UHGV virus genome: UHGV-1351982
DNA length: 64,000 bases
DNA from: a virus
Strand: one strand, 5' to 3'
The notes beneath the pieces were generated by a model. The model made no database searches. It was not told the origin of the DNA and saw nothing but the letters and a program-made list of their open reading frames with translations. Below, in pieces: positions 1 through 6,209 of the stretch (position 1 is its first letter; each line of letters opens with the position of its first letter). A program made the translations under genes and the position numbers.

Positions 1-68
1 GTCACTCAGAATTGAACTGAGTTCCACTGCTTGCAAGGCAGTAAGTTTAACCAAATAACCTATGACCC
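1..68 (-). tRNA. tRNA, 3' end truncated by window start; anticodon not securely resolved
   Basis: Reverse complement shows T-arm ctcag-ttcaatt-ctgag, anticodon-arm-like hairpin actgc/gcagt, acceptor gggtcat pairing with the window edge. Confidence 0.4.
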
Positions 69-77
69 CGAATTTGG

Positions 78-152
78 TGGAGAAAGAGGGAGTTGAACCC
101 TCGTCTTCTGCGTGCAAAGCAGATGTTCTACCATTAAACTATATCCCCAAAA
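78..152 (-). tRNA. tRNA-Ala (anticodon UGC)
   Basis: Cloverleaf on reverse complement: acceptor ggggata with G3:U70, anticodon stem tctgc/gcaga, loop tttgcac, T-arm gaggg-ttcaact-ccctc, CCA encoded. Confidence 0.6.
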
Positions 153-410
153 TCTTTAAGTTTACTAAGGCTATTAGCTCGGTGTGCGTAATACCCTCGG
201 CAATTAGCCATGCGAGGATACCCGCTCTCCACAAACCCGATACACTATTCAGTTGCCGCTGAATCTAGTGGACTAATCTAGAACTTCTTGCAAAGTATCC
301 CCCGCCATTAGGGGTCTAATTGCAACCGTGCTTTTTGGCAGCCAGTCCTAGGTCGAGCTAATACCTTAGTGAACTTTGATGAGGATTTCTCCTCATCAAT
401 TTATATAAAT

Positions 411-440
411 ATTATAACAAGAAATTAAGCATCAAGCAAG
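411..440 (-). promoter_or_regulatory. sigma70-like early promoter (TTGCTT, spacer, TATAAT) feeding the tRNA/ncRNA block at 1-400
   Basis: Minus-strand reading gives ttgctt ... gttataat followed by the conserved leader ttatataaattgatgaggag; no ORF follows, only RNA genes. Confidence 0.5.
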
Positions 441-791
441 TACATTTTTGCAGATTTCTTGTATTTCCTTAACGTCACTAACGAAAAGGTAATCAGAGCT
501 TCCAGAGTGCATACTCTGCATAACCACACCACCATCCGGTGCATCATCTTTCAGAGTAATTCCTAACCAGAACTCGGCAAAACTAGGTGTTACCTCACCT
601 TGACTTGCCTTGAACACATCGCCTTCTGTGATCTCTTGACCAGTAGAGAGTCCTATGTACGGTACATTCAGATCAATATCTTTGTAGAATTCAGCTAGAT
701 CTTGTTCGAAGTCCCAACCTTTAGAGATAGCGAACTCCATTGTTACATGCCCGAAATAGCCTTGAACCTTGCTTGATAATTGCATTTGCAA
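432..791 (-). CDS. hypothetical protein (119 aa)
   Basis: ORF with AAGGA RBS 6 nt upstream of the ATG; no recognisable motif. Confidence 0.55.
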   Translation of the reverse strand: MQMQLSSKVQGYFGHVTMEFAISKGWDFEQDLAEFYKDIDLNVPYIGLSTGQEITEGDVFKASQGEVTPSFAEFWLGITLKDDAPDGGVVMQSMHSGSSDYLFVSDVKEIQEICKNVLA

Positions 792-810
792 TTCCTTATT
801 TTGAGTTAAT

Positions 811-884
811 TGGTACTCGGTGATAGAATCGAACTATCGCAACCGCCGTGTAAAGACGGGGTTCTCCCATTAAACTAACCGAGC
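811..884 (-). tRNA. tRNA-Val (anticodon UAC)
   Basis: Acceptor gctcggt/accgagt, anticodon stem ccgtc/ggcgg, loop tttacac, T-arm gatag-ttcgatt-ctatc, CCA encoded. Confidence 0.6.
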
Positions 885-1017
885 AAAAGACTTCCTATGA
901 TGTAGGCTTCAAACAGAAACTCACATAATCCCGCTAAGAACATTCCAATAGTAAAATCAGCAGAAAATACGTTGTACTGCTTGACTTTTTGTTTCATTAA
1001 GTAAAACCAGATTATCA

Positions 1018-1335
1018 TCAAAATCTCTCCATTCTAAAACCAATGAAGTAAGGAGCGTTACAGGGAACATGTTTAAGATCTTTAAGAGTAATTTTACGTC
1101 CTAAACGTCGTTCCATACAAGTAAAACATAGAACAATATCTTTGGATTGTTCTTTTCTTATCTGATCCCAGACCCAATCTTCAACCACACACATTTCATG
1201 GTATTGTTCACAGTCTCGACAATAATGACATTGATGTTCTGGTACTTTTTGATTTTTAATACATAATTCAGTGAAGCGTTTTCCAGCTCTACCAGACATT
1301 TCTGATATTGTTCCTAGAACTTTGTTAATATTCAT
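1018..1335 (-). CDS. hypothetical Cys/His-rich protein (possible zinc-binding), 105 aa
   Basis: ORF; CxxC and HxxC clusters (HQCHYCRDCEQYHEMC, CFTCMERR). Confidence 0.5.
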   Translation of the reverse strand: MNINKVLGTISEMSGRAGKRFTELCIKNQKVPEHQCHYCRDCEQYHEMCVVEDWVWDQIRKEQSKDIVLCFTCMERRLGRKITLKDLKHVPCNAPYFIGFRMERF

Positions 1336-1352
1336 AACAAATTCCTTTAAAT

Positions 1353-1430
1353 TGGTTGACCGTCTGGGATTCGAACCCAGAACCTACGAGGTAAAAGCTC
1401 GGTACTCTTATCCAGTTGAGTTAACGGTCA
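1353..1430 (-). tRNA. tRNA-Lys (anticodon UUU)
   Basis: Acceptor tgaccgt/acggtca, anticodon loop cttttac, T-arm ctggg-ttcgaat-cccag, CCA encoded. Confidence 0.55.
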
Positions 1431-1432
1431 AT

Positions 1433-1597
1433 TTAATACATGTATACTTCTTTAATAGAGTGGACTTTCAAGTAAGGATGATTAATACCAAATTCCGCCA
1501 TCACTTCATTTTCATCTTTACCGTAATGGGCTAGTGGATACTTCTTACGATCTTTGCTAGAACGTAGATCACTTACTTTTAAACGAAATAATTTCAT
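1433..1597 (-). CDS. small hypothetical protein (about 54 aa) between two tRNA genes
   Basis: ATG preceded by GAAGGA RBS; below the ORF-track length cutoff. Confidence 0.3.
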   Translation of the reverse strand: MKLFRLKVSDLRSSKDRKKYPLAHYGKDENEVMAEFGINHPYLKVHSIKEVYMY

Positions 1598-1618
1598 TTC
1601 GAAATCCTTCTATTAAAT

Positions 1619-1696
1619 TGGAAGCGGGTGTAGGAATCGAACCTACCTCTTTCTAGCTTATGAAACTAGCGATCTCTACCAGAGATCTAACCCGCA
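1619..1696 (-). tRNA. tRNA with CAU anticodon (Met or Ile-lysidine)
   Basis: Anticodon stem ctagt/gctag, loop ttcataa, T-arm gtagg-ttcgatt-cctac, acceptor gcgggt/acccgc; possible 1:72 mismatch. Confidence 0.5.
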
Positions 1697-1702
1697 ATTG
1701 TT

Positions 1703-1778
1703 TGGTCTCCGTGGGAGGATTTGAACCCCCGACCCTACCGCCCCAAACGGTGTACTCTAGCCAATTGAGCTAATCGGA
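1703..1778 (-). tRNA. tRNA-Pro (anticodon UGG), tentative
   Basis: Anticodon loop tttgggg on accg/cggt stem, T-arm ggggg-ttcaaat-cctcc, acceptor tctccg/cggaga. Confidence 0.45.
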
Positions 1779-1811
1779 GAATATTCTTTGTTAACTCACT
1801 TTATAAAATAT

Positions 1812-1840
1812 ATTATACAGACATTTAAGTATAATAGCAA
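1812..1840 (-). promoter_or_regulatory. sigma70-like early promoter for the tRNA block at 1353-1778
   Basis: Minus strand: ttgcta, 17 nt, tataat. Confidence 0.5.
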
Positions 1841-2099
1841 ATGAGTTTTTAATAAATTTACTTATTGCGTAGGCCACCTGGAGGGTTCAAGCCCCACGGC
1901 TGACAAAGAAGTTTGCGAGACTTCTCTTAAATGCCAGAATAGACCCGCCGATCTATCGGAACCTACTCAATAAGTAAACTTCCGTTTACTTACACCTACC
2001 TGGTCGGGAGGATTTTCAGCGACTAGAACCGGCCGGAAACTCATCGCCTTGTTTATCTTGTAGTCCCACCATAGGTGACGCGACCTACAAAGATTTGGT

Positions 2100-2474
2100 T
2101 TATTCTTTTAAATAGTGAAGTTCTCTATGACAATTAGCGCAGAGTATAATACACTTTTGCAATTCAGTATGTAATTTAGCTCTAGAAATATTTGAAGACC
2201 TAAATACGCTTATATTATAATCTTTTGAGTCACTTTCTACGTGATGAAATTCTAATGCAGCTTTGCATTTATCATATCCGCATTTAGAACATTTTAATTC
2301 AGGGAAATATAAAGATATTATATCATCTACTGATTGTCTACGCTTGTTATTTTCACTTATCTTACACGTGGGTTTCCATTTCTGTTTTCCTGAAGGATGC
2401 AGTCCATTAGTGTAAAAATACTCTGTTGTCAGTGGATGTTCAACTCCACAACTTTTACAAAACTTATATTCCAT
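2100..2474 (-). CDS. HNH endonuclease (likely homing endonuclease) within the tRNA cluster
   Basis: Zinc-ribbon CxxC pairs plus HNH core (EFHHVESD ... CANCHRELH) in the translation. Confidence 0.65.
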   Translation of the reverse strand: MEYKFCKSCGVEHPLTTEYFYTNGLHPSGKQKWKPTCKISENNKRRQSVDDIISLYFPELKCSKCGYDKCKAALEFHHVESDSKDYNISVFRSSNISRAKLHTELQKCIILCANCHRELHYLKE

Positions 2475-2490
2475 TATAATACCTTAGATT

Positions 2491-2616
2491 TGGCGTTCTA
2501 GGGAGGACTTGAACCTCCTATCACTTGTGCGGAATTACGAGCAAACCATTTATCTACGGAATCGAACCGTATCTCAACCCTCGGCAAGCTGGCTTCCCCA
2601 CTCAGCCACGCTAGAA
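2491..2616 (-). tRNA. atypical tRNA-like element of about 126 nt with two T-arm-like hairpins; may be one unusual RNA or two overlapping degenerate tRNAs
   Basis: 3' end has T-arm ggagg-ttcaagt-cctcc, acceptor ctagaac and CCA; the complementary acceptor strand ttctag lies about 120 nt upstream; a second hairpin tacgg-ttcgatt-ccgta sits inside. Confidence 0.3.
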
Positions 2617-2699
2617 TGATAATTAGTGCCTGCTCCTTTGAATCAAGAAGTCCACCCTGGACTTTGGGTCTTTGCAGTACATCACGCTGCTCTGATGTT

Positions 2700-2775
2700 T
2701 GGTACACCCACTAGGACTTGAACCTAGAACCCTCCGCTTAAGAGGCGGTAGCTCTAACCATTGAGCTATGGATGT
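2700..2775 (-). tRNA. tRNA with apparent CUU anticodon (Lys), tentative
   Basis: 76-nt cloverleaf: acceptor acatcca/tgggtgt, D-stem gctc/gagc, anticodon loop ctcttaa, T-arm ctagg-ttcaagt-cctag, CCA. Confidence 0.5.
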
Positions 2776-2851
2776 ATTATTATGTTTTGCAGTGCTCTAA
2801 ATATAGACACTTCCCACGCGGTGGTTATCTATACCAGCGTCCTGCAAAAAT

Positions 2852-2928
2852 TGGCGCGACCGATGGGATTCGAACCCACATTTTCTCCCGTGACAGGGGA
2901 GTACCATTACCAAGCCAGCCCCGATCGC
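2852..2928 (-). tRNA. tRNA-Asp (anticodon GUC)
   Basis: Acceptor gcgatcg/cggtcgc, anticodon stem ctccc/gggag, loop ctgtcac, T-arm gtggg-ttcgaat-cccat, CCA. Confidence 0.6.
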
Positions 2929-2937
2929 ATAATTTAT

Positions 2938-3123
2938 TTACTCAGTTTTGAGTTTTTCGATAGCTTCCTCAACCTCTTTTAGAGCTTCACGACGGACATT
3001 CTGTTGCTGCATATCTTGAATTAATGTCAGTTTTTGGTTTTCAATTTCTTGATCCCAAACCTTAATATTATTAATCAGACTATCACGATCAGCTTCTAGT
3101 CGAGCAATTGCACGAGTTGTCAT
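2938..3123 (-). CDS. hypothetical coiled-coil protein (61 aa)
   Basis: ORF only; charged, helical-looking sequence. Confidence 0.4.
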   Translation of the reverse strand: MTTRAIARLEADRDSLINNIKVWDQEIENQKLTLIQDMQQQNVRREALKEVEEAIEKLKTE

Positions 3124-3225
3124 ATCTATTTCCTCAGTTATTAATGAAAATGGTATCTGTGACTGAATTCAATATCAGTAATGATAGCTGGTTGGCTACC
3201 GGTTTACTTAACTCTACACAGAATA

Positions 3226-3312
3226 TGGCGGGCCGTGTAGGAGTCGAACCTACTTTATCCTTGCGGATACGGATTAACAGTCCGGCGCTTAAACCGTTCA
3301 GCCAACGACCCT
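3226..3312 (-). tRNA. type II (long variable arm) tRNA with apparent GUU anticodon; identity uncertain
   Basis: 87 nt: acceptor gggtcgt/acggccc, 3-bp D-stem, anticodon loop ctgttaa, variable hairpin tatcc-gcaa-ggata, T-arm gtagg-ttcgact-cctac, CCA. Confidence 0.45.
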
Positions 3313-3317
3313 AAATT

Positions 3318-3393
3318 TGGACGACCGCATGAGATTCGAACTCACATAAGGAGGTTTTGCAGGCCTCCGCCTAAGCCATTCAGCCAACGGTCG
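3318..3393 (-). tRNA. tRNA-Cys (anticodon GCA)
   Basis: Acceptor cgaccgt/gcggtcg, anticodon stem ggagg/cctcc, loop ctgcaaa, T-arm gtgag-ttcgaat-ctcat, CCA. Confidence 0.55.
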
Positions 3394-3571
3394 ATTTATC
3401 TTGTTTTTCGAGATTAGTAAATTCTAGGTCTTTGGAATGCCCTATAGATCTAGCATAATAACCATCTCCAGCATCGTAGCCTGATTTACCACACTCACAC
3501 ATCTTAAACTCCCGATAACGAGTGAATGTATGCTCAGAACCACAACACTTAAATTTAACTAACATTTTCAT
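3380..3571 (-). CDS. small zinc-ribbon-like protein (63 aa)
   Basis: ORF with CCGSEH ... CECGKSG cysteine pairs. Confidence 0.45.
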   Translation of the reverse strand: MKMLVKFKCCGSEHTFTRYREFKMCECGKSGYDAGDGYYARSIGHSKDLEFTNLEKQDKSTVG

Positions 3572-3810
3572 GAAACACGCTCCGGTAGATCTTCTAATTT
3601 ATATTCAGTAGCTACATTAGCAGCGTCTAGTAATAAACCCATATGTTTAAGGATTTTAGTAATAGATTCGCCTTCAGCTTCTTCTACAAAGGTGCGTAGT
3701 TGAATGAAGTCAATACCACCATCCATACCAGAGAAAATGTTTAGTAAGCGAAGCATTACCAGCTTACGTTCTTTTAATTCTTGTTCTGTCATGTTGCTTC
3801 TCCAGTTCAA
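3568..3810 (-). CDS. hypothetical protein (80 aa)
   Basis: ORF, start/stop overlap with the downstream gene. Confidence 0.5.
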   Translation of the reverse strand: MNWRSNMTEQELKERKLVMLRLLNIFSGMDGGIDFIQLRTFVEEAEGESITKILKHMGLLLDAANVATEYKLEDLPERVS

Positions 3811-3842
3811 TTTATGTAATAATTATACGGAACTTTAAGGAT

Positions 3843-4130
3843 TTAAGCAACTACATTTTTCAGAAATTTGATGCCTTTCTTTTTCTTCTTATATTTCCAC
3901 GTTAATGGATTCTGTCGATTATGAACGCTTGAGATCTTTGTCTCGTCAAAGTTCTTCAAGACCATGTAATCACATGCCAACTGCTCTAGTGGAATGGTTT
4001 CTCCATCAAAAGCATAAACATAAGGCTGTTGACTAACACGATAATGATAGACTTTGTTAATTCTACGTTTCAGCGACTTATCCGCGCAGTAAATAAAGAA
4101 GTTTTCAGGATGCATCAGCATCTCCTTCAA
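3843..4130 (-). CDS. hypothetical protein (95 aa)
   Basis: ORF. Confidence 0.5.
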   Translation of the reverse strand: MKEMLMHPENFFIYCADKSLKRRINKVYHYRVSQQPYVYAFDGETIPLEQLACDYMVLKNFDETKISSVHNRQNPLTWKYKKKKKGIKFLKNVVA

Positions 4131-4132
4131 AT

Positions 4133-4207
4133 TGGTGCAACCTGTACGTAACGATCGTACCTCTTCTCCTTTTCAGGGAGACGCTAATCCATCTCAGCTA
4201 AAGTCGC
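4133..4207 (-). tRNA. tRNA-Phe (anticodon GAA)
   Basis: Acceptor gcgactt/aggttgc, anticodon stem tctcc/ggaga, loop ctgaaaa, T-arm gtacg-atcgtta-cgtac (non-canonical loop), CCA. Confidence 0.5.
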
Positions 4208-4213
4208 AAATAT

Positions 4214-4290
4214 TGGCAAACCTACTAGGACTCGAACCTAGACCGTACGGTTTTGGAGACCGACATGCTGTCCAGTAACACTCTAGGAAT
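4214..4290 (-). tRNA. tRNA-like, apparent CCA anticodon (Trp); acceptor stem poorly paired
   Basis: T-arm ctagg-ttcgagt-cctag and anticodon loop ctccaaa present, CCA end; only 4 of 7 acceptor pairs. Confidence 0.3.
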
Positions 4291-4298
4291 GCAGAAAT

Positions 4299-4376
4299 TG
4301 GCGTCCTGTGCGGGGATCGAACCCGCAAACCCTACCTTGAAAGGGTAGTGACTTTACCAGTTTGTCTAACAGGACT
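4299..4376 (-). tRNA. tRNA-Glu (anticodon UUC)
   Basis: Perfect acceptor gtcctgt/acaggac, anticodon stem ctacc/ggtag, loop ctttcaa, T-arm gcggg-ttcgatc-cccgc, CCA. Confidence 0.65.
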
Positions 4377-4382
4377 TAAATT

Positions 4383-4473
4383 TGGTGTTGGATGATGGAG
4401 TCGAACCACCCGAGACCCTTCCGAGTCGGCAGATTTACAGTCTGCTTCGCTACCTCTACGATACTAATCCAAC
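4383..4473 (-). tRNA. tRNA-Tyr (anticodon GUA), type II
   Basis: 91 nt; acceptor gttggat/atccaac, anticodon stem gcaga/tctgc, loop ctgtaaa, long variable arm, T-arm ggtgg-ttcgact-ccatc, CCA. Confidence 0.6.
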
Positions 4474-4537
4474 ATATTTAGAAATATTCAAATACTAGTT
4501 TAAACACTTTTAAATATGTTTTCCAAATTAGATAACT

Positions 4538-4566
4538 ATTATATCAAGTTTTGAAGGACTGAGCAA
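4538..4566 (-). promoter_or_regulatory. sigma70-like early promoter for the tRNA block at 4133-4473
   Basis: Minus strand: ttgctc, 17 nt, tataat. Confidence 0.45.
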
Positions 4567-4602
4567 GTCAAATTTTAAAGAACTTGCTCAGTGCTATATC
4601 AG

Positions 4603-4878
4603 TTACTCGAAGCTAGGAGTGACACTCAGTTTGAATGGAAGCTCGAACACTTCTTCATAATCATCATTGAGCGTAATTACACGACCTTCTAGCTTAGTTA
4701 TGGTGATTTCGATATCAGCCTTTGCATCCGGAGCCATACCAGCTTCCACACATTTAGCTTTGACTTCCGGCAGAAGTTCTACATCGTAGAAATAAAGCCA
4801 TTCAATCTCACCTTCCCAGCCACCCCAGGATTTACAAACAGCACTTTCAACACCAGTTGCAGAAACACGTTTTGACAT
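4603..4878 (-). CDS. hypothetical protein (91 aa)
   Basis: ORF downstream of promoter at 4908-4938. Confidence 0.5.
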   Translation of the reverse strand: MSKRVSATGVESAVCKSWGGWEGEIEWLYFYDVELLPEVKAKCVEAGMAPDAKADIEITITKLEGRVITLNDDYEEVFELPFKLSVTPSFE

Positions 4879-4968
4879 TCGTTAACTCCTTCATCAATTT
4901 ATATAACTATTATAGCAGAAATCTTAAGTAAAAAGCAAGTACATTTTTAAAATTTCTGCTTGGAGGAG

Positions 4969-5241
4969 TTAAACTCCTGATTCTTCAGCCAGATCAAGCC
5001 CAACCAATGTGATTGCCATAATAGCCGCGCCATGTTCTTTCTCTCCTAGCTCTTTGGCTTGAGTGAGAATATTGAGGAATTGCTTTTGAAAATCTGCAAC
5101 TTCTTCTGTCATGCCTGCTTCAGCAATAATTCCTTTCAGCATAAAGCGTTGTGCCGTAATTTCAGGATTATCCATTTGTTTTCTCCAGTTGTTTAGAGTG
5201 TAAGCCAAACTTAGGCTCATAGCGATCGTAAGTCGTACCAT
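4969..5241 (-). CDS. hypothetical protein; start uncertain (internal ATG at 5175 has a GGAG RBS)
   Basis: ORF; an alternative short upstream ORF in another frame would be translationally coupled. Confidence 0.4.
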   Translation of the reverse strand: MVRLTIAMSLSLAYTLNNWRKQMDNPEITAQRFMLKGIIAEAGMTEEVADFQKQFLNILTQAKELGEKEHGAAIMAITLVGLDLAEESGV

Positions 5242-5326
5242 TAGTTGAAGCCTTGATGCTATGAAAACGACAGTACATAAATTTACGCAGTGCTTTCTTA
5301 ATAGCTTTCATTTTATTTCCTTAATT

Positions 5327-5404
5327 TGGTAGGGGTGGTGGGATTCGAACCCACAAAACCTGAATTTTAAGTCCAGTACCTATGCCAATTCGATTACACC
5401 CCCA
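5327..5404 (-). tRNA. type I tRNA with apparent UAA anticodon (Leu-like decoding of UUA)
   Basis: Acceptor gggggtg/cacccct, anticodon stem ctgga/ttcag, loop cttaaaa, T-arm gtggg-ttcgaat-cccac, CCA. Confidence 0.5.
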
Positions 5405-5495
5405 TGTAATCAGTTTATCAGTTGATACAAGTTGTAGCCCAGTGAAAATCCTACTATTAGTCCTACAAACCAACCAATATAATAATCTTTTAATT

Positions 5496-5843
5496 TCATA
5501 GTTCGTAACCTTGAATGTATCGAGCAAAGCCAGTAATTTCGAACTGGATAGCCCAGGCTACTTCCATGTGTTCAATCTTCTCAAACCGAGCGTCGGACTG
5601 CTCTAGGAAATAACGAGAGATTATAGGGAACTCAATGTCAAAGTCTTCCTTATCCATGCCATAATAGAAGTTCTCAGAGATATTACGCACTTCACAGAAG
5701 AAGTCCTCAATCTGAAAATCCATCAGAGGATAGGTATACTCCTCTTTGCTATCATCCGTTTGGAAGAAGCGGAAATGCACAAGGCAAGAGCCAATCAGGT
5801 TTACTGCTGGTGTAGTGTAGATATCCATCTTAACCTCGCTCAA
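5496..5843 (-). CDS. hypothetical protein (115 aa)
   Basis: ORF. Confidence 0.5.
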   Translation of the reverse strand: MSEVKMDIYTTPAVNLIGSCLVHFRFFQTDDSKEEYTYPLMDFQIEDFFCEVRNISENFYYGMDKEDFDIEFPIISRYFLEQSDARFEKIEHMEVAWAIQFEITGFARYIQGYEL

Positions 5844-6015
5844 TATCTAGAGAAATACCGCATTCAGGATTAATACCAGAACCATTACAATGTGTACAAA
5901 CGTATGTATTATACCATGTATCACCAGGTTCAGCATCGTTCCATTCACCTGCTCCGAAGCATTTTGGGCAGGCACACTCTTCTAGTTCCTGCTTCAATTC
6001 CTGAAACTTAGACAT
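5830..6015 (-). CDS. small Cys-rich zinc-ribbon-like protein (61 aa)
   Basis: ORF with CACPKCFGAG ... CTHCNGSG. Confidence 0.45.
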   Translation of the reverse strand: MSKFQELKQELEECACPKCFGAGEWNDAEPGDTWYNTYVCTHCNGSGINPECGISLDIERG

Positions 6016-6032
6016 ATCGTCTCCTAGTTAAT

Positions 6033-6110
6033 TGGTGGCTCCCGGAGGATTCGAACCTACCTACCTTTCGCTTATGAGGCGACGGCTCATACCAAATGAG
6101 CTTGAGAACC
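6033..6110 (-). tRNA. tRNA with CAU anticodon (second copy; Met or Ile-lysidine)
   Basis: Acceptor ggttctc/gggagcc, anticodon loop ctcataa, T-arm gtagg-ttcgaat-cctcc, CCA. Confidence 0.5.
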
Positions 6111-6115
6111 AAATT

Positions 6116-6209
6116 TGGAGGAAGATGCCAGACTCGAACTGGCACACCGTGTTTCCACAGCTACTAGCTGTTTAGCAAACAGCTCCCTTACCTTTAGGGT
6201 TAATCTTCC
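6116..6209 (-). tRNA. tRNA-Ser (anticodon GCU), type II
   Basis: 94 nt; acceptor ggaagat/atcttcc, 3-bp D-stem, anticodon stem gctgt/acagc, loop ttgctaa, long variable arm, T-arm gccag-ttcgagt-ctggc, CCA. Confidence 0.55.

What the first reader, a model, noticed from the sequence alone, without database searches (positions are those of the whole stretch)
2491..2616. 126-nt tRNA-like element with two T-arm hairpins
A CCA-ended T-arm and acceptor 3' strand pair with an acceptor 5' strand about 120 nt upstream, and a second near-canonical T-arm hairpin lies in between. This fits neither a type I nor a type II tRNA. It may be a tRNA with an inserted element, two overlapping degenerate tRNAs, or a tRNA-like stable RNA.
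Basis: seen in the sequence. Interest (0 to 1): 0.55.

Follow-up and report, generated by a model that had tools for sequence, protein, structure and literature searches.

The report
Phage T5 "RNA2"-type tRNA-like RNA
This is the counterpart of phage T5's long-annotated but never explained "RNA2": a tRNA-shaped RNA that cannot decode because a conserved 57-nt module with a second tRNA-like elbow replaces its anticodon loop, and the same design recurs in many unrelated large phages.

Summary
On the minus strand, 2617->2491 (127 nt) has a 7-position acceptor stem (6 pairs plus an A1.C72 mismatch), a D arm, a 5-bp anticodon-type stem, a 4-nt variable loop, a T arm, G73 and an encoded CCA. A second T-arm-like hairpin lies inside. 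It is not two tRNAs. ARAGORN's "tRNA-Arg(ccg)" at 2547-2616 is a miscall.

The window is a T5-like phage. The element is the ortholog of T5 gene rna2, annotated "tRNA-like stable RNA with unknown functions".

Related sequences show a wider family in T5-like, Acinetobacter T4-like and uncultivated 160-360 kb phages, always in tRNA clusters. Rfam has no family for it.

All six helices covary: 92.6% of cells pair, against 62.5% in shuffles. The 57-nt insert is the conserved part. It is a bulged helix (GGGY/RUCC, GUAA bulge) carrying a UUCGAUU hairpin and an AUGGU mini-hairpin. I read this as a permuted mini-tRNA core without an acceptor arm.

It cannot decode. The likeliest role is a stable tRNA mimic or decoy that binds a tRNA-recognising factor. 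That role is inferred, not shown.

It is an already known object of unknown function, with a family-level architecture I found described nowhere.

The parts
2491..2617 (-). Whole RNA (127 nt including the encoded CCA). Ortholog of phage T5 rna2 (RNA2).
   Evidence: 78.7% identity to T5 rna2 over 122 nt. T5 annotation. Covariance model R1 gives 86.3 bits at 2494-2617.
2611..2617 (-). Acceptor stem, 5' strand AUUCUAG. A2617 faces C2495 as a mismatch.
   Evidence: Pairs with 2495-2501. All 7 pairs show changes on both sides across the family. Position 1 is G (G-C) in phage KKP_3711 and A-U in T5.
2590..2610 (-). Linker CG, then the D arm: UGGC / loop UGAGUGGGGAA / GCCA.
   Evidence: The 4-bp D stem pairs in 91.7% of cells, and all 4 pairs show double changes.
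2585..2589 (-). Anticodon-type stem, 5' strand GCUUG.
   Evidence: Pairs with CAAGU at 2523-2527. The helix pairs in 96.1% of cells, with 5 pairs showing double changes.
2528..2584 (-). 57-nt conserved module that replaces the 7-nt anticodon loop.
   Evidence: It is the only DNA shared between otherwise unrelated phages. Segmentation.
2577..2583 (-). 5' side of the module helix: C (pairs with G2530), a GA bulge, then GGGU.
   Evidence: C-G 22 and U.G 6 of 30. GGG/UCC is invariant. The fourth pair Y-R is UA 14 and CG 9 (U.U in this window).
2572..2576 (-). J1 UGAGA. G2575 and A2574 are proposed to pair with C2539 and U2540 (helix P5).
   Evidence: G-C in 30 of 31. The second pair is AU 15, UA 7, GC 5, UG 1, with 3 exceptions.
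2555..2571 (-). Inner T-arm-like hairpin UACGG-UUCGAUU-CCGUA.
   Evidence: Three stem pairs each show 4 pair types. The loop is UUCGAUU or UUCAAUU even in members found without requiring it.
2540..2554 (-). J2: GA, then a mini-hairpin UAA-AUGGU-UUG (a D-loop-like GG pentaloop), then CU.
   Evidence: The bases flanking AUGGU pair as AU 17, UA 8, GU 2, CG 1, with 3 exceptions.
2528..2539 (-). 3' side of the module helix: C, then GUAA (4-nt bulge), UUCC, G, and CA.
   Evidence: CGUAA, UCC and A are invariant and GC nearly so. The GCA part was not imposed by the search patterns.
2523..2527 (-). Anticodon-type stem, 3' strand CAAGU.
2519..2522 (-). Variable loop GAUA (4 nt, type I length).
   Evidence: Segmentation.
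2502..2518 (-). Outer T arm GGAGG-UUCAAGU-CCUCC.
   Evidence: 95.3% of cells paired, with 4 pairs showing double changes.
2491..2501 (-). Acceptor 3' strand CUAGAAC, discriminator G, and encoded CCA.
   Evidence: CCA is also encoded in the KKP_3711, Klebsiella and Erwinia versions, but is ACA in T5 and absent in most distant members.

Best explanation
The element is the ortholog of phage T5 RNA2, a roughly 125-nt non-decoding, tRNA-shaped stable RNA made from the phage's tRNA gene cluster.

Shown here:
- The outer part has every helix of a type I tRNA.
- The anticodon loop is replaced by a conserved 57-nt module. The module is a bulged helix (a C-G pair, a 1-3-nt bulge, GGGY/RUCC, then a 2-bp helix that leaves GUAA bulged). 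That helix carries a T-arm-like hairpin (loop UUCGAUU) and a tiny hairpin with an AUGGU loop.
- In strand order (helix strand, 5-nt joiner, T arm, linker, GG-loop hairpin, helix strand) the module is a circularly permuted tRNA core without an acceptor arm. The RNA therefore carries two tRNA 'elbows' joined through their anticodon-side helices.

Inferred:
- It is co-transcribed with the neighbouring tRNAs.
- It is cut out by RNase P and the tRNA 3'-end machinery, and stabilised because its outer half looks like a tRNA. The outer half acts as a natural 'tRNA scaffold'.
- The conserved inner module is the working part.
- Because it has no anticodon loop and no conserved aminoacylation identity, it most likely acts by binding. 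It would be a tRNA mimic, decoy or adaptor for a factor that recognises tRNA shape.
- The most attractive candidate partner is a host tRNA-targeting defence nuclease. A tRNA-processing or modification enzyme, or the ribosome, are alternatives.
For: Identity:
- The window is 99% identical to Salmonella phage vB_SalS-SIY1lw, a T5-like phage.
- The T5 ortholog is annotated as misc_RNA rna2, 'tRNA-like stable RNA with unknown functions'.
- The same neighbours occur: tRNA-Asp upstream and RNAIV downstream.

Structure:
- 31 pairs in six helices pair in 92.6% of cells, against 62.5% in shuffles (0 of 500 reach it) and 43% or less when partners are slid.
- 25 of 31 pairs show changes on both sides.
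- The extra helices P5 and P7 pair in 91.5% of cells against 65.3% (0 of 500).
- The thermodynamic rod-like fold is not conserved. Its specific helices pair in only 30-60% of cells.

Family:
- Members occur in T5-like phages of Escherichia, Salmonella, Klebsiella, Erwinia and Providencia, in Acinetobacter T4-like phage 133, and in uncultivated phage contigs of 164-364 kb.
- Model R1 separates members (42-90 bits, including the untrained L062 at 82 bits) from tRNAs (29 bits or less). There is one copy per locus.
- The module, not the tRNA body, is the conserved sequence.

Non-decoding:
- The loop is 57 nt.
- No splice junction gives a loop with U33 and a purine at 37 (read from the sequences).
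- The discriminator varies (G, U, A, C) and CCA is encoded in only a minority.

Processing context:
- The element lies inside a same-strand tRNA array, with no promoter-like site between it and the upstream tRNA-Lys.
- The Acinetobacter phage 133 copy exactly fills the gap between tRNA-Gly and tRNA-Cys.

Permuted-core reading:
- L063 and L064 carry an extra arm of about 48 nt exactly where the acceptor-like arm of a permuted tRNA would sit.
Against: - That T5 RNA2 accumulates as a stable RNA rests on the GenBank note.
- No binding partner is identified and no co-occurring protein gene was found.
- Deletions within the T5 tRNA gene region are described as non-essential (PMC11464382, citing Glukhov 2018). 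I did not establish that any of them removes rna2, so this says little about RNA2 itself.
- My own parser built the family alignment and chose the best register for the acceptor, D and anticodon stems. That inflates pairing.
- The search patterns themselves imposed conservation of GUUCGAUUC, AUGGU and CGUAA-N-UCC.
- Nearest-neighbour energies favour another fold for this sequence: -38.2 against -21.5 kcal/mol, z = -0.8.
- The P7 mini-hairpin is broken in KKP_3711 and the Klebsiella phages.
- Several members (Acj133, L046, L047, L049, L050, L052, L061) lack a convincing acceptor stem.
- In this window pair 1-72 is A.C and the fourth GGGY/RUCC pair is U.U.
Confidence: 0.6

Rival explanations
1. 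It is a real tRNA gene interrupted by a short intron or mobile insert in the anticodon loop. The insert is removed to give a decoding tRNA, for example Arg-CCG.
For: The insert sits exactly between the two strands of a 5-bp anticodon stem. Rfam's tRNA model accepts one member, L057, at 40.9 bits with the module treated as an insertion. The invariant UCCGCA resembles the anticodon loop CUCCGGA of E. coli tRNA-Arg(CCG) (recalled from memory). The module is far more conserved than the tRNA bodies, as a mobile element would be.
Against: Known bacterial and phage tRNA introns are group I introns of more than 200 nt, and protein-spliced bulge-helix-bulge introns are archaeal or eukaryal (established knowledge). 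Any junction that yields 7 nt puts C at position 37, which is always a purine, and C or U at 33 (sequences). T5 annotates the unspliced 125 nt as the stable RNA. The T4-like members lack an acceptor stem, so they could not be tRNAs even after splicing.
Confidence: 0.05
2. It is the debris of two tRNA genes fused by deletion, or a decayed tRNA, with no function. ARAGORN's tRNA-Arg(ccg) call stands for the 5' one.
For: ARAGORN calls tRNA-Arg(ccg) at 2547-2616, and one GenBank record (KKP_3711) carries that annotation. Two T arms in 127 nt are what a fusion would leave.
Against: The called tRNA has 4 of 7 acceptor pairs and G rather than U before the anticodon (read from the sequence). The outer acceptor stem spanning 120 nt covaries. 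The inner part is conserved from T5-like to T4-like to jumbo phages at 42-90 bits. That is incompatible with neutral decay.
Confidence: 0.03
3. It is charged with an amino acid and works on or near the ribosome, or as an aminoacyl donor. It would be a tmRNA-like or non-ribosomal transfer role.
For: It has a complete acceptor stem with a discriminator and encoded CCA in this phage, KKP_3711, the Klebsiella phages and Erwinia KEY. The inner T-loop plus GG-loop arrangement recalls the tRNA-like domain of tmRNA (from memory).
Against: The discriminator and acceptor sequence are not conserved. No G3.U70, no long variable arm and no anticodon are present, so no known identity set is kept. CCA is not encoded in most members. 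Some members have no acceptor stem. There is no tag reading frame, ARAGORN finds no tmRNA, and Rfam gives no tmRNA hit.
Confidence: 0.07
4. The conserved 55 bp acts at the DNA level, for example as a homing-endonuclease target or recombination site that moves tRNA clusters between phages. The RNA would be incidental.
For: An HNH endonuclease gene lies 17 bp downstream in this window (annotated as HNH in phage OSY-STA). Similarity to most relatives breaks at the element's 3' end. The core is the only DNA shared with unrelated phages. T4 SegB cuts in the tRNA region (PMC2330249, from its abstract).
Against: Compensatory changes in the inner hairpin and flanking helices are RNA-level constraints. 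The HNH gene is absent from nearly all other members. T5 records the product as a stable RNA.
Confidence: 0.05

Closest known systems
Phage T5 RNA2 (gene rna2, locus T5s06, NC_005859 32959-33083)
   Same: It is the ortholog. It shows 78.7% identity over 122 nt, the same position in the tRNA cluster, the same helices with compensatory changes, and the same inner module.
   Different: This window has the 'Epseptimavirus-type' joiners: J1 is UGAGA against AGAA, and J2 is GAUAA-AUGGU-UUGCU against GAAAGA-AUGGU-UCU. It has an encoded CCA where T5 has ACA. Pair 1-72 is A.C where T5 has A-U. An HNH gene is inserted between it and RNAIV. The function of T5 RNA2 is itself unknown.
Canonical type I tRNA
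   Same: A 7-position acceptor stem, a 4-bp D stem with a GG-containing loop, a 5-bp anticodon stem, a 4-5-nt variable loop, a 5-bp T stem with a UUCRANY loop, and a discriminator plus CCA.
   Different: It has no 7-nt anticodon loop and no U33, anticodon or purine 37. C8 replaces U8 in the T5-like members. The Rfam tRNA score is 15.4 bits against a threshold of 29.
Bacterial Y RNAs of the YrlA type (Chen et al. 2014, PMC4201824)
   Same: The inner module has the same strand order as YrlA's tRNA-like domain: helix strand, variable region, T arm, (acceptor-like arm), D element, helix strand. In both, this is attached to a bulged helix (one search compared). Both are non-decoding tRNA mimics, and some YrlA RNAs are phage-encoded.
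   Different: The Ro-binding motif GNCGAAN0-1G is not conserved. Rfam gives no YrlA or Y RNA hit at E up to 10. In the members examined the neighbours are tRNA genes; adjacency to rsr/TROVE genes was not examined. The ends of this RNA are at a real acceptor stem, not at the bulged helix. The D stem and acceptor-like arm of the inner domain are reduced or absent.
Phage T4 RNAC and RNAD (species 1 and 2 RNAs)
   Same: They are small stable RNAs encoded at the end of a phage tRNA cluster, with a tRNA-like 3' part (T arm) and unknown function (PMC3014915 and PMC9697503).
   Different: There is no detectable homology. Model R1 gives only 21.3 bits on the tRNA-like part of rnaC. The conserved module is absent.
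tRNA-like domain of tmRNA
   Same: An acceptor and T arm, a stemless GG-containing D-loop analogue, and a long helix in place of the anticodon arm (from memory).
   Different: It has no tag reading frame or pseudoknot series and no G3.U70. ARAGORN and Rfam do not detect a tmRNA. The likeness of GCCGAGGG...GCUCGUAAUUCCGCA to E. coli tmRNA PK1 is not conserved in the family.
Engineered 'tRNA scaffolds' for expressing recombinant RNA (Ponchon and Dardel 2007, from memory)
   Same: A cargo RNA replaces the anticodon loop of a tRNA, so that the chimera is processed and protected like a tRNA. That is exactly the layout seen here.
   Different: That system is man-made. Here the layout is natural and the cargo is itself a mini-tRNA core.

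Membership tests
T5 RNA2 family (tRNA-like stable RNA of T5-like phages) | Sequence homology to T5 rna2 | tested here: met
   78.7% identity over 122 nt. 471 phage records match, and T5's match lies under the rna2 feature.
T5 RNA2 family (tRNA-like stable RNA of T5-like phages) | Same place in the tRNA cluster | tested here: met
   The window order is tRNA-Asp, tRNA-Lys(ctt), RNA2, [HNH gene], RNAIV ortholog. The T5 order is tRNA-Asp, ORF T5.067, RNA2, RNAIV.
T5 RNA2 family (tRNA-like stable RNA of T5-like phages) | Shared secondary structure kept by compensatory changes | tested here: met
   Model R1 gives 86.3 bits.
T5 RNA2 family (tRNA-like stable RNA of T5-like phages) | Accumulates as a stable transcript of about 125 nt | not testable with these tools
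   Only the T5 GenBank note says so. No RNA data are available for this phage.
Canonical tRNA | Acceptor, D, anticodon and T stems of standard size | tested here: met
Canonical tRNA | 7-nt anticodon loop with U33 and purine 37 | tested here: not met
   There are 57 nt between the stem strands (2584-2528). No 7-nt loop can be derived.
Canonical tRNA | Reaches Rfam RF00005 gathering score | tested here: not met
   15.4 bits against 29. It is absent from the gathering-threshold scan.
tRNA with intron | Intron of a known bacterial class (group I), or exons that join to give a valid anticodon loop | tested here: not met
   Rfam finds no intron family. The insert is 50 nt. The joined loop would have C37.
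tmRNA | Tag reading frame, pseudoknots and alanine identity G3.U70 | tested here: not met
   ARAGORN finds no tmRNA and Rfam gives no hit. Pair 3-70 is U-A here.
YrlA / bacterial Y RNA | Permuted tRNA-like domain (T arm followed by a D element) attached to a bulged helix | tested here: inconclusive
   The inner module has this strand order and GG/T loops. However, the D stem is only 1-3 bp and the acceptor-like arm is missing except in L063/L064.
YrlA / bacterial Y RNA | Ro-binding motif GNCGAAN0-1G and a match to the YrlA model | tested here: not met
   The motif is not conserved; the equivalent stretch varies (CGA, CUA, CUU, AUA and others). Rfam gives no hit at E up to 10.
YrlA / bacterial Y RNA | Encoded next to an rsr (Ro60/TROVE) gene | not tested
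   The window's proteins were not scanned for TROVE. The immediate neighbours are tRNAs and an HNH gene.
T4 RNAC/RNAD | Sequence or structure homology | tested here: not met
   R1 gives 21.3 bits on the tRNA-like part of rnaC only. Sequences.

The most novel reading that the evidence does not exclude
RNA2-type RNAs form a widespread, previously unclassified class of phage non-coding RNA. Each is a natural tRNA scaffold that displays a permuted, acceptor-less mini-tRNA 'second elbow' in place of the anticodon. They act as uncleavable tRNA decoys that disarm host tRNA-targeting immune nucleases, or that tether two tRNA-binding factors as Y RNAs do. This would finally give a function to the 'stable RNAs' of phage tRNA clusters.
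Probability: 0.25. Interest if true: 0.8.

Novelty: already known. Interest (0 to 1): 0.48.

Why it matters
Small stable RNAs encoded in phage tRNA clusters have been known for decades without any assigned function. Examples are T4 RNAC and RNAD and T5 RNA1, RNA2, RNA3 and RNAIV.

This locus belongs to a family kept from T5-like to T4-like to jumbo phages. It has a sharply conserved 57-nt core and a freely covarying tRNA shell. That defines what to mutate and what to use as bait. The invariant GGG, the AUGGU loop, the GUAA bulge and the inner T-loop are the targets.

It also corrects annotation. In public records this RNA is mostly unannotated, called tRNA-Arg(CCG), or covered by a spurious ORF.

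If the decoy idea is right, it adds an RNA-based counter-defence to the known role of phage tRNAs against PARIS, retron and Septu nucleases.

Tried and rejected
- **Single-sequence folding.** It gives a rod-like fold with z = -0.8. That fold is rejected because its specific helices pair in only 30-60% of family cells.
- **ARAGORN's tRNA-Arg(ccg).** Rejected because the acceptor is poor and there is no U33.
- **A CGAG/CUCG helix inside the insert, and a likeness to tmRNA pseudoknot PK1.** CGAG is not conserved (CUUG, C-UG, CUAG in relatives), so both are dropped.
- **An anticodon-like reading of CUCGUAA (Thr CGU).** The 'U33' is the variable base (U, A or C) and no flanking stem is conserved.
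- **Intron hypothesis.** Rejected (see rival explanations).
- **Homology to T4 rnaC/rnaD.** None found.
- **YrlA Ro-binding motif.** Not conserved.
- **Plain MAFFT alignments.** These misaligned the inner hairpin (A5) or the 5' halves (A4). I replaced them with a segment-wise parse padded with N.
- **Genome-collection hits L059 and L060.** These are chance matches. They have no GGG, no outer T arm, and at most 20.6 bits.
- **Literature searches.** They found no paper in the held library that describes T5 RNA2 or this family. The primary T5 papers are not held.
- **Pairing between J1 and J2b beyond 2 bp.** The register shifts between lineages and is not convincing.
Full report
**What is there**

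The window is a T5-like phage. The stretch 2300-2800 is 99% identical to Salmonella phage vB_SalS-SIY1lw and related Demerecviridae. Bases 1-6200 carry a dense tRNA gene array on the minus strand (17 of ARAGORN's 18 tRNA calls; 19 Rfam tRNA hits window-wide).

Read on the minus strand, 2617->2491 is:
AUUCUAG CG UGGC-UGAGUGGGGAA-GCCA GCUUG [57 nt] CAAGU GAUA GGAGG-UUCAAGU-CCUCC CUAGAAC G CCA.

The internal 'second T arm' UACGG-UUCGAUU-CCGUA (2571-2555) is real too. The first base is probably A2617, which faces C2495.

Standard tools do not explain the element:
- ARAGORN calls a 70-nt tRNA-Arg(ccg) at 2547-2616. Its acceptor has 4 of 7 pairs, and G rather than U precedes the 'anticodon'.
- Rfam's tRNA model reaches only 15.4 bits (threshold 29), by spanning the whole element with a 68-nt insertion.
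- No other Rfam family matches at E up to 10.

**Identity**

BLAST of the 151-nt region finds 471 phage records, and 417 of them cover at least 80% of the query. In most records nothing is annotated. A few carry a 'hypothetical protein' or, in KKP_3711, 'tRNA-Arg(ccg)'.

In the reference T5 genome the match lies under misc_RNA rna2, 'RNA2: tRNA-like stable RNA with unknown functions', 125 nt. Identity to the window is 78.7% over 122 nt. The T5 record annotates further RNAs of unknown function in the same cluster: RNA1, RNA3, RNAIV, RNA2H and RNAI.

Synteny holds. The window also has orthologs of RNA3 (3151-3223), RNAIV (1866-1966) and RNA2H (232-363), all on the minus strand. In T5, RNA2 and RNAIV are 18 nt apart. 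Here a 124-aa HNH endonuclease ORF (2100-2474, minus strand) sits between them. This explains why similarity to most relatives stops at the 3' end of the element.

**Structure**

Comparing the window with T5, KKP_3711, a Klebsiella Sugarlandvirus, Erwinia phage KEY and Shivani already shows compensatory changes in every helix:
- Acceptor: AUUCUAG/CUAGAAC, UACGGGG/UCCCGUA, AGACAAU/AUUGUCU.
- D stem: UGGC/GCCA, UGGU/ACCA, UGAC/GUCA.
- Anticodon-type stem: GCUUG/CAAGU, GCCUG/CAGGU.
- Inner hairpin: UACGG/CCGUA, GCUCG/CGAGU.
- Outer T stem.

Position 1 is G (G1-C72) in KKP_3711 and A1-U72 in T5. The A.C in this window is therefore a lineage peculiarity.

I segmented 36 distinct family sequences and made an N-padded alignment (A6). 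On it, the six-helix structure pairs in 92.6% of 930 cells. Shuffles give 62.5% (0 of 500 reach the observed value) and slid partners give 43% or less. 25 of 31 pairs change on both sides, and the covariation score is 0.783 against 0.200.

The minimum-free-energy fold of the single sequence is a rod (-38.2 kcal/mol, z = -0.8). The comparative fold scores -21.5 kcal/mol. However, the rod's own helices pair in only 30-60% of cells across the family, so I discard the rod.

One caveat applies to the alignment. My parser picked the best register for three stems, which favours pairing.

**The insert**

The 57 nt sit exactly between the two strands of the 5-bp anticodon-type stem. The family consensus is:
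5'-N, C (or U), a 1-3-nt bulge, GGG-Y, J1 (usually A-G-N-A), a 4-5-bp hairpin with loop UUCGAUU or UUCAAUU, J2 (often U-GAAAG-N), AUGGU, 0-5 nt, CGUAA, R-UCC, G-C-A-3'.

The pairs within it behave as follows:
- C pairs with G (CG 22, UG 6).
- GGG/UCC never varies.
- Y-R covaries (UA 14, CG 9; U.U in this window).

A scan for further covariation, checked with the tool's controls, supports two small helices:
- **P5.** J1 positions 2-3 pair with the two bases N'-C that begin the CGUAA block. The pairs are G-C in 30 of 31, then AU 15, UA 7, GC 5, UG 1. This leaves GUAA as a four-base bulge.
- **P7.** The bases flanking AUGGU pair (AU 17, UA 8, GU 2, CG 1). This gives a 1-3-bp hairpin with an AUGGU loop.
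- Together these pair in 91.5% of cells against 65.3% in shuffles (0 of 500).

The order along the strand is: helix strand, 5-nt joiner, T arm, short linker, GG-loop hairpin, helix strand. That is the order in a tRNA opened at its anticodon loop and closed at (here, lacking) its acceptor stem.

Two uncultivated members (L063 and L064) carry an extra arm of about 48 nt just where the acceptor-like arm would be. I therefore read the module as a permuted, acceptor-less mini-tRNA core. Its T loop and GG loop could form a second 'elbow'. This tertiary contact is inferred, not tested.

**Family range**

Pattern scans and BLAST found the same design in these phages:
- T5-like phages of Escherichia, Salmonella, Klebsiella, Erwinia and Providencia.
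- T4-like Acinetobacter phage 133. There the element exactly fills the 105-nt gap between tRNA-Gly and tRNA-Cys and is unannotated.
- A 170-kb contig (L047).
- Uncultivated viral contigs of 164, 204, 251, 311 and 364 kb, and several shorter ones.

Wherever flanks were examined, the element lies among tRNA genes.

A covariance model built from the alignment (R1) scores members at 42-90 bits and ordinary tRNAs at 29 bits or less. It finds one copy per locus. L062, which was not used to build it, scores 82 bits. For L062 the only DNA similar to any isolate phage is the roughly 80-110-nt core of this RNA.

Many distant members have perfect 7-bp acceptor stems of unrelated sequence (L042, L045, L051, L056, L062). 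The T4-like ones and a few others have none.

Part of the apparent invariance is imposed by my search patterns (GUUCGAUUC, AUGGU, CGUAA-N-UCC). The GGG, and (for the members found by the patterns) the GCA, as well as the tRNA body and the helices, were not imposed.

Rfam has no family for any member. One member (L057) passes as 'tRNA' at 40.9 bits with the module treated as an insertion.

**How it probably works**

Shown:
- It has a tRNA-shaped shell.
- It has no anticodon loop.
- It has a conserved inner module.
- It is located inside same-strand tRNA arrays.
- No promoter-like site lies between it and the upstream tRNA-Lys.

Inferred:
- It is transcribed with the tRNAs.
- It is released by RNase P and tRNA 3'-end processing. 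In the members without an acceptor stem, it would instead be released by processing of the two flanking tRNAs.
- It carries CCA, either encoded (here) or added.
- It is stable because it looks like a tRNA.

It cannot decode. The discriminator varies (G, U, A, C), there is no G3.U70, and there is no long variable arm. I therefore see no conserved aminoacylation identity.

The sequence-conserved part is the module, so the module should be the working part and the tRNA body its carrier. Engineered 'tRNA scaffolds' use the same layout (from memory).

A tRNA-shaped RNA that lacks the cleavable loop and carries an extra elbow is best suited to bind something that recognises tRNA shape. Phage tRNA regions are now known to counter tRNA-cleaving defences. 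Examples are T5 tRNA-Lys against PARIS (PMC11464382) and T5 tRNA-Tyr against retron Eco7 (as cited in PMC10644984). Given that, a decoy for such nucleases is my leading specific guess, at about 0.25. Sponging of a tRNA-processing or modification enzyme, ribosome binding, or Y-RNA-like tethering remain open.

Deletions within the T5 tRNA gene region are non-essential in the laboratory, which would fit an accessory, host-dependent role. I did not check whether any of those deletions covers rna2.

**Comparison with known families**

- It is a member of the T5 RNA2 family by homology, synteny and structure.
- It is not a tRNA, because the loop test and the Rfam threshold fail.
- It is not a tmRNA.
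- It is not an intron-containing tRNA.
- It is not detectably related to T4 RNAC or RNAD, whose functions are also unknown.
- The inner module shares its topology with the tRNA-like domain of bacterial YrlA Y RNAs. It lacks their Ro-binding motif, gives no Rfam match, and in the members examined sits among tRNA genes. So it 'works like' a tRNA mimic of that kind, but membership is not supported.

**Verdict**

As an object it is already known (T5 rna2), so novelty is low.

The new points are these:
- The evidence for covariation.
- The breadth of the family beyond T5-like phages.
- The common mis-annotation or non-annotation of the locus.

Function remains unknown. The mechanism given is an inference.

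Noticed in passing
window 2547-2616 (-); L001 1549-1618: ARAGORN calls the 5' part of the element tRNA-Arg(ccg). The same call is deposited in the GenBank record of Enterobacter phage KKP_3711. In most other records the locus is unannotated or covered by a 'hypothetical protein'. Here the spurious ORF is 2498-2707 (-), 69 aa.
   Followed up: yes
window 2100-2474 (-): A 124-aa HNH-type endonuclease ORF starts 17 nt after the RNA's 3' end. It lies between RNA2 and the RNAIV ortholog, which are only 18 nt apart in T5. It looks like a homing-endonuclease insertion, and similarity to most relatives breaks at this point.
   Followed up: partly
window 3151-3223 (-), 1866-1966 (-), 232-363 (-): These are orthologs of three more T5 RNAs of unknown function: RNA3 (94.5% identity), RNAIV (94%) and RNA2H (80%, partial). 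No tool annotates them. No RNA1 ortholog was found in the first 14 kb.
   Followed up: partly
window 2618-2699 (-): The 82-nt spacer between tRNA-Lys(ctt) and RNA2 is conserved at about 92% among many Epseptimavirus-type phages along with its flanks. It holds no called gene. Its role (leader, processing site or another small RNA) is unknown.
   Followed up: no
L002 4943-5086 (T5 RNA1): T5 RNA1, another 'tRNA-like stable RNA', has a Leu-type D arm and a hairpin GAGAU-AAAUGGUCU-AUCUC just before its T arm. The sequence UUGAGAUAAAUGGU resembles J1 plus J2 of this window's RNA2 with the inner T hairpin removed. It may be a paralog of the module.
   Followed up: no
L063 7918-8084 (-) and L064 11919-12085 (+): A variant of the family carries an extra arm of about 48 nt between the inner T hairpin and AUGGU. 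The contigs are 112 kb and 251 kb uncultivated phage sequences. Model R1 scores it 42 bits.
   Followed up: partly
L018 1482-1586 (Acinetobacter phage 133, NC_015250 about 69551-69655): An unannotated family member exactly fills the gap between tRNA-Gly and tRNA-Cys in a T4-like phage. It keeps the module and the outer T arm but has no clear acceptor stem or D arm.
   Followed up: partly
L056 652-1136 (-): A GOLLD RNA (Rfam RF02032, 176 bits) lies on the same uncultivated phage contig as a family member and overlaps one of the contig's tRNA genes (998-1070).
   Followed up: no
window 12919-12990 (-) and 1-69 (-): Rfam finds two tRNA-like hits that ARAGORN does not report. One sits just at threshold (29.3 bits). 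The other is cut by the window edge.
   Followed up: no
window 2702-2775 (+): There is a sub-threshold Rfam hit to 'Plastid-ycf2 5'UTR' (35.9 bits against 65.7) on the antisense strand of tRNA-Lys(ctt). It is evidently an artefact of tRNA-like sequence in that model.
   Followed up: no
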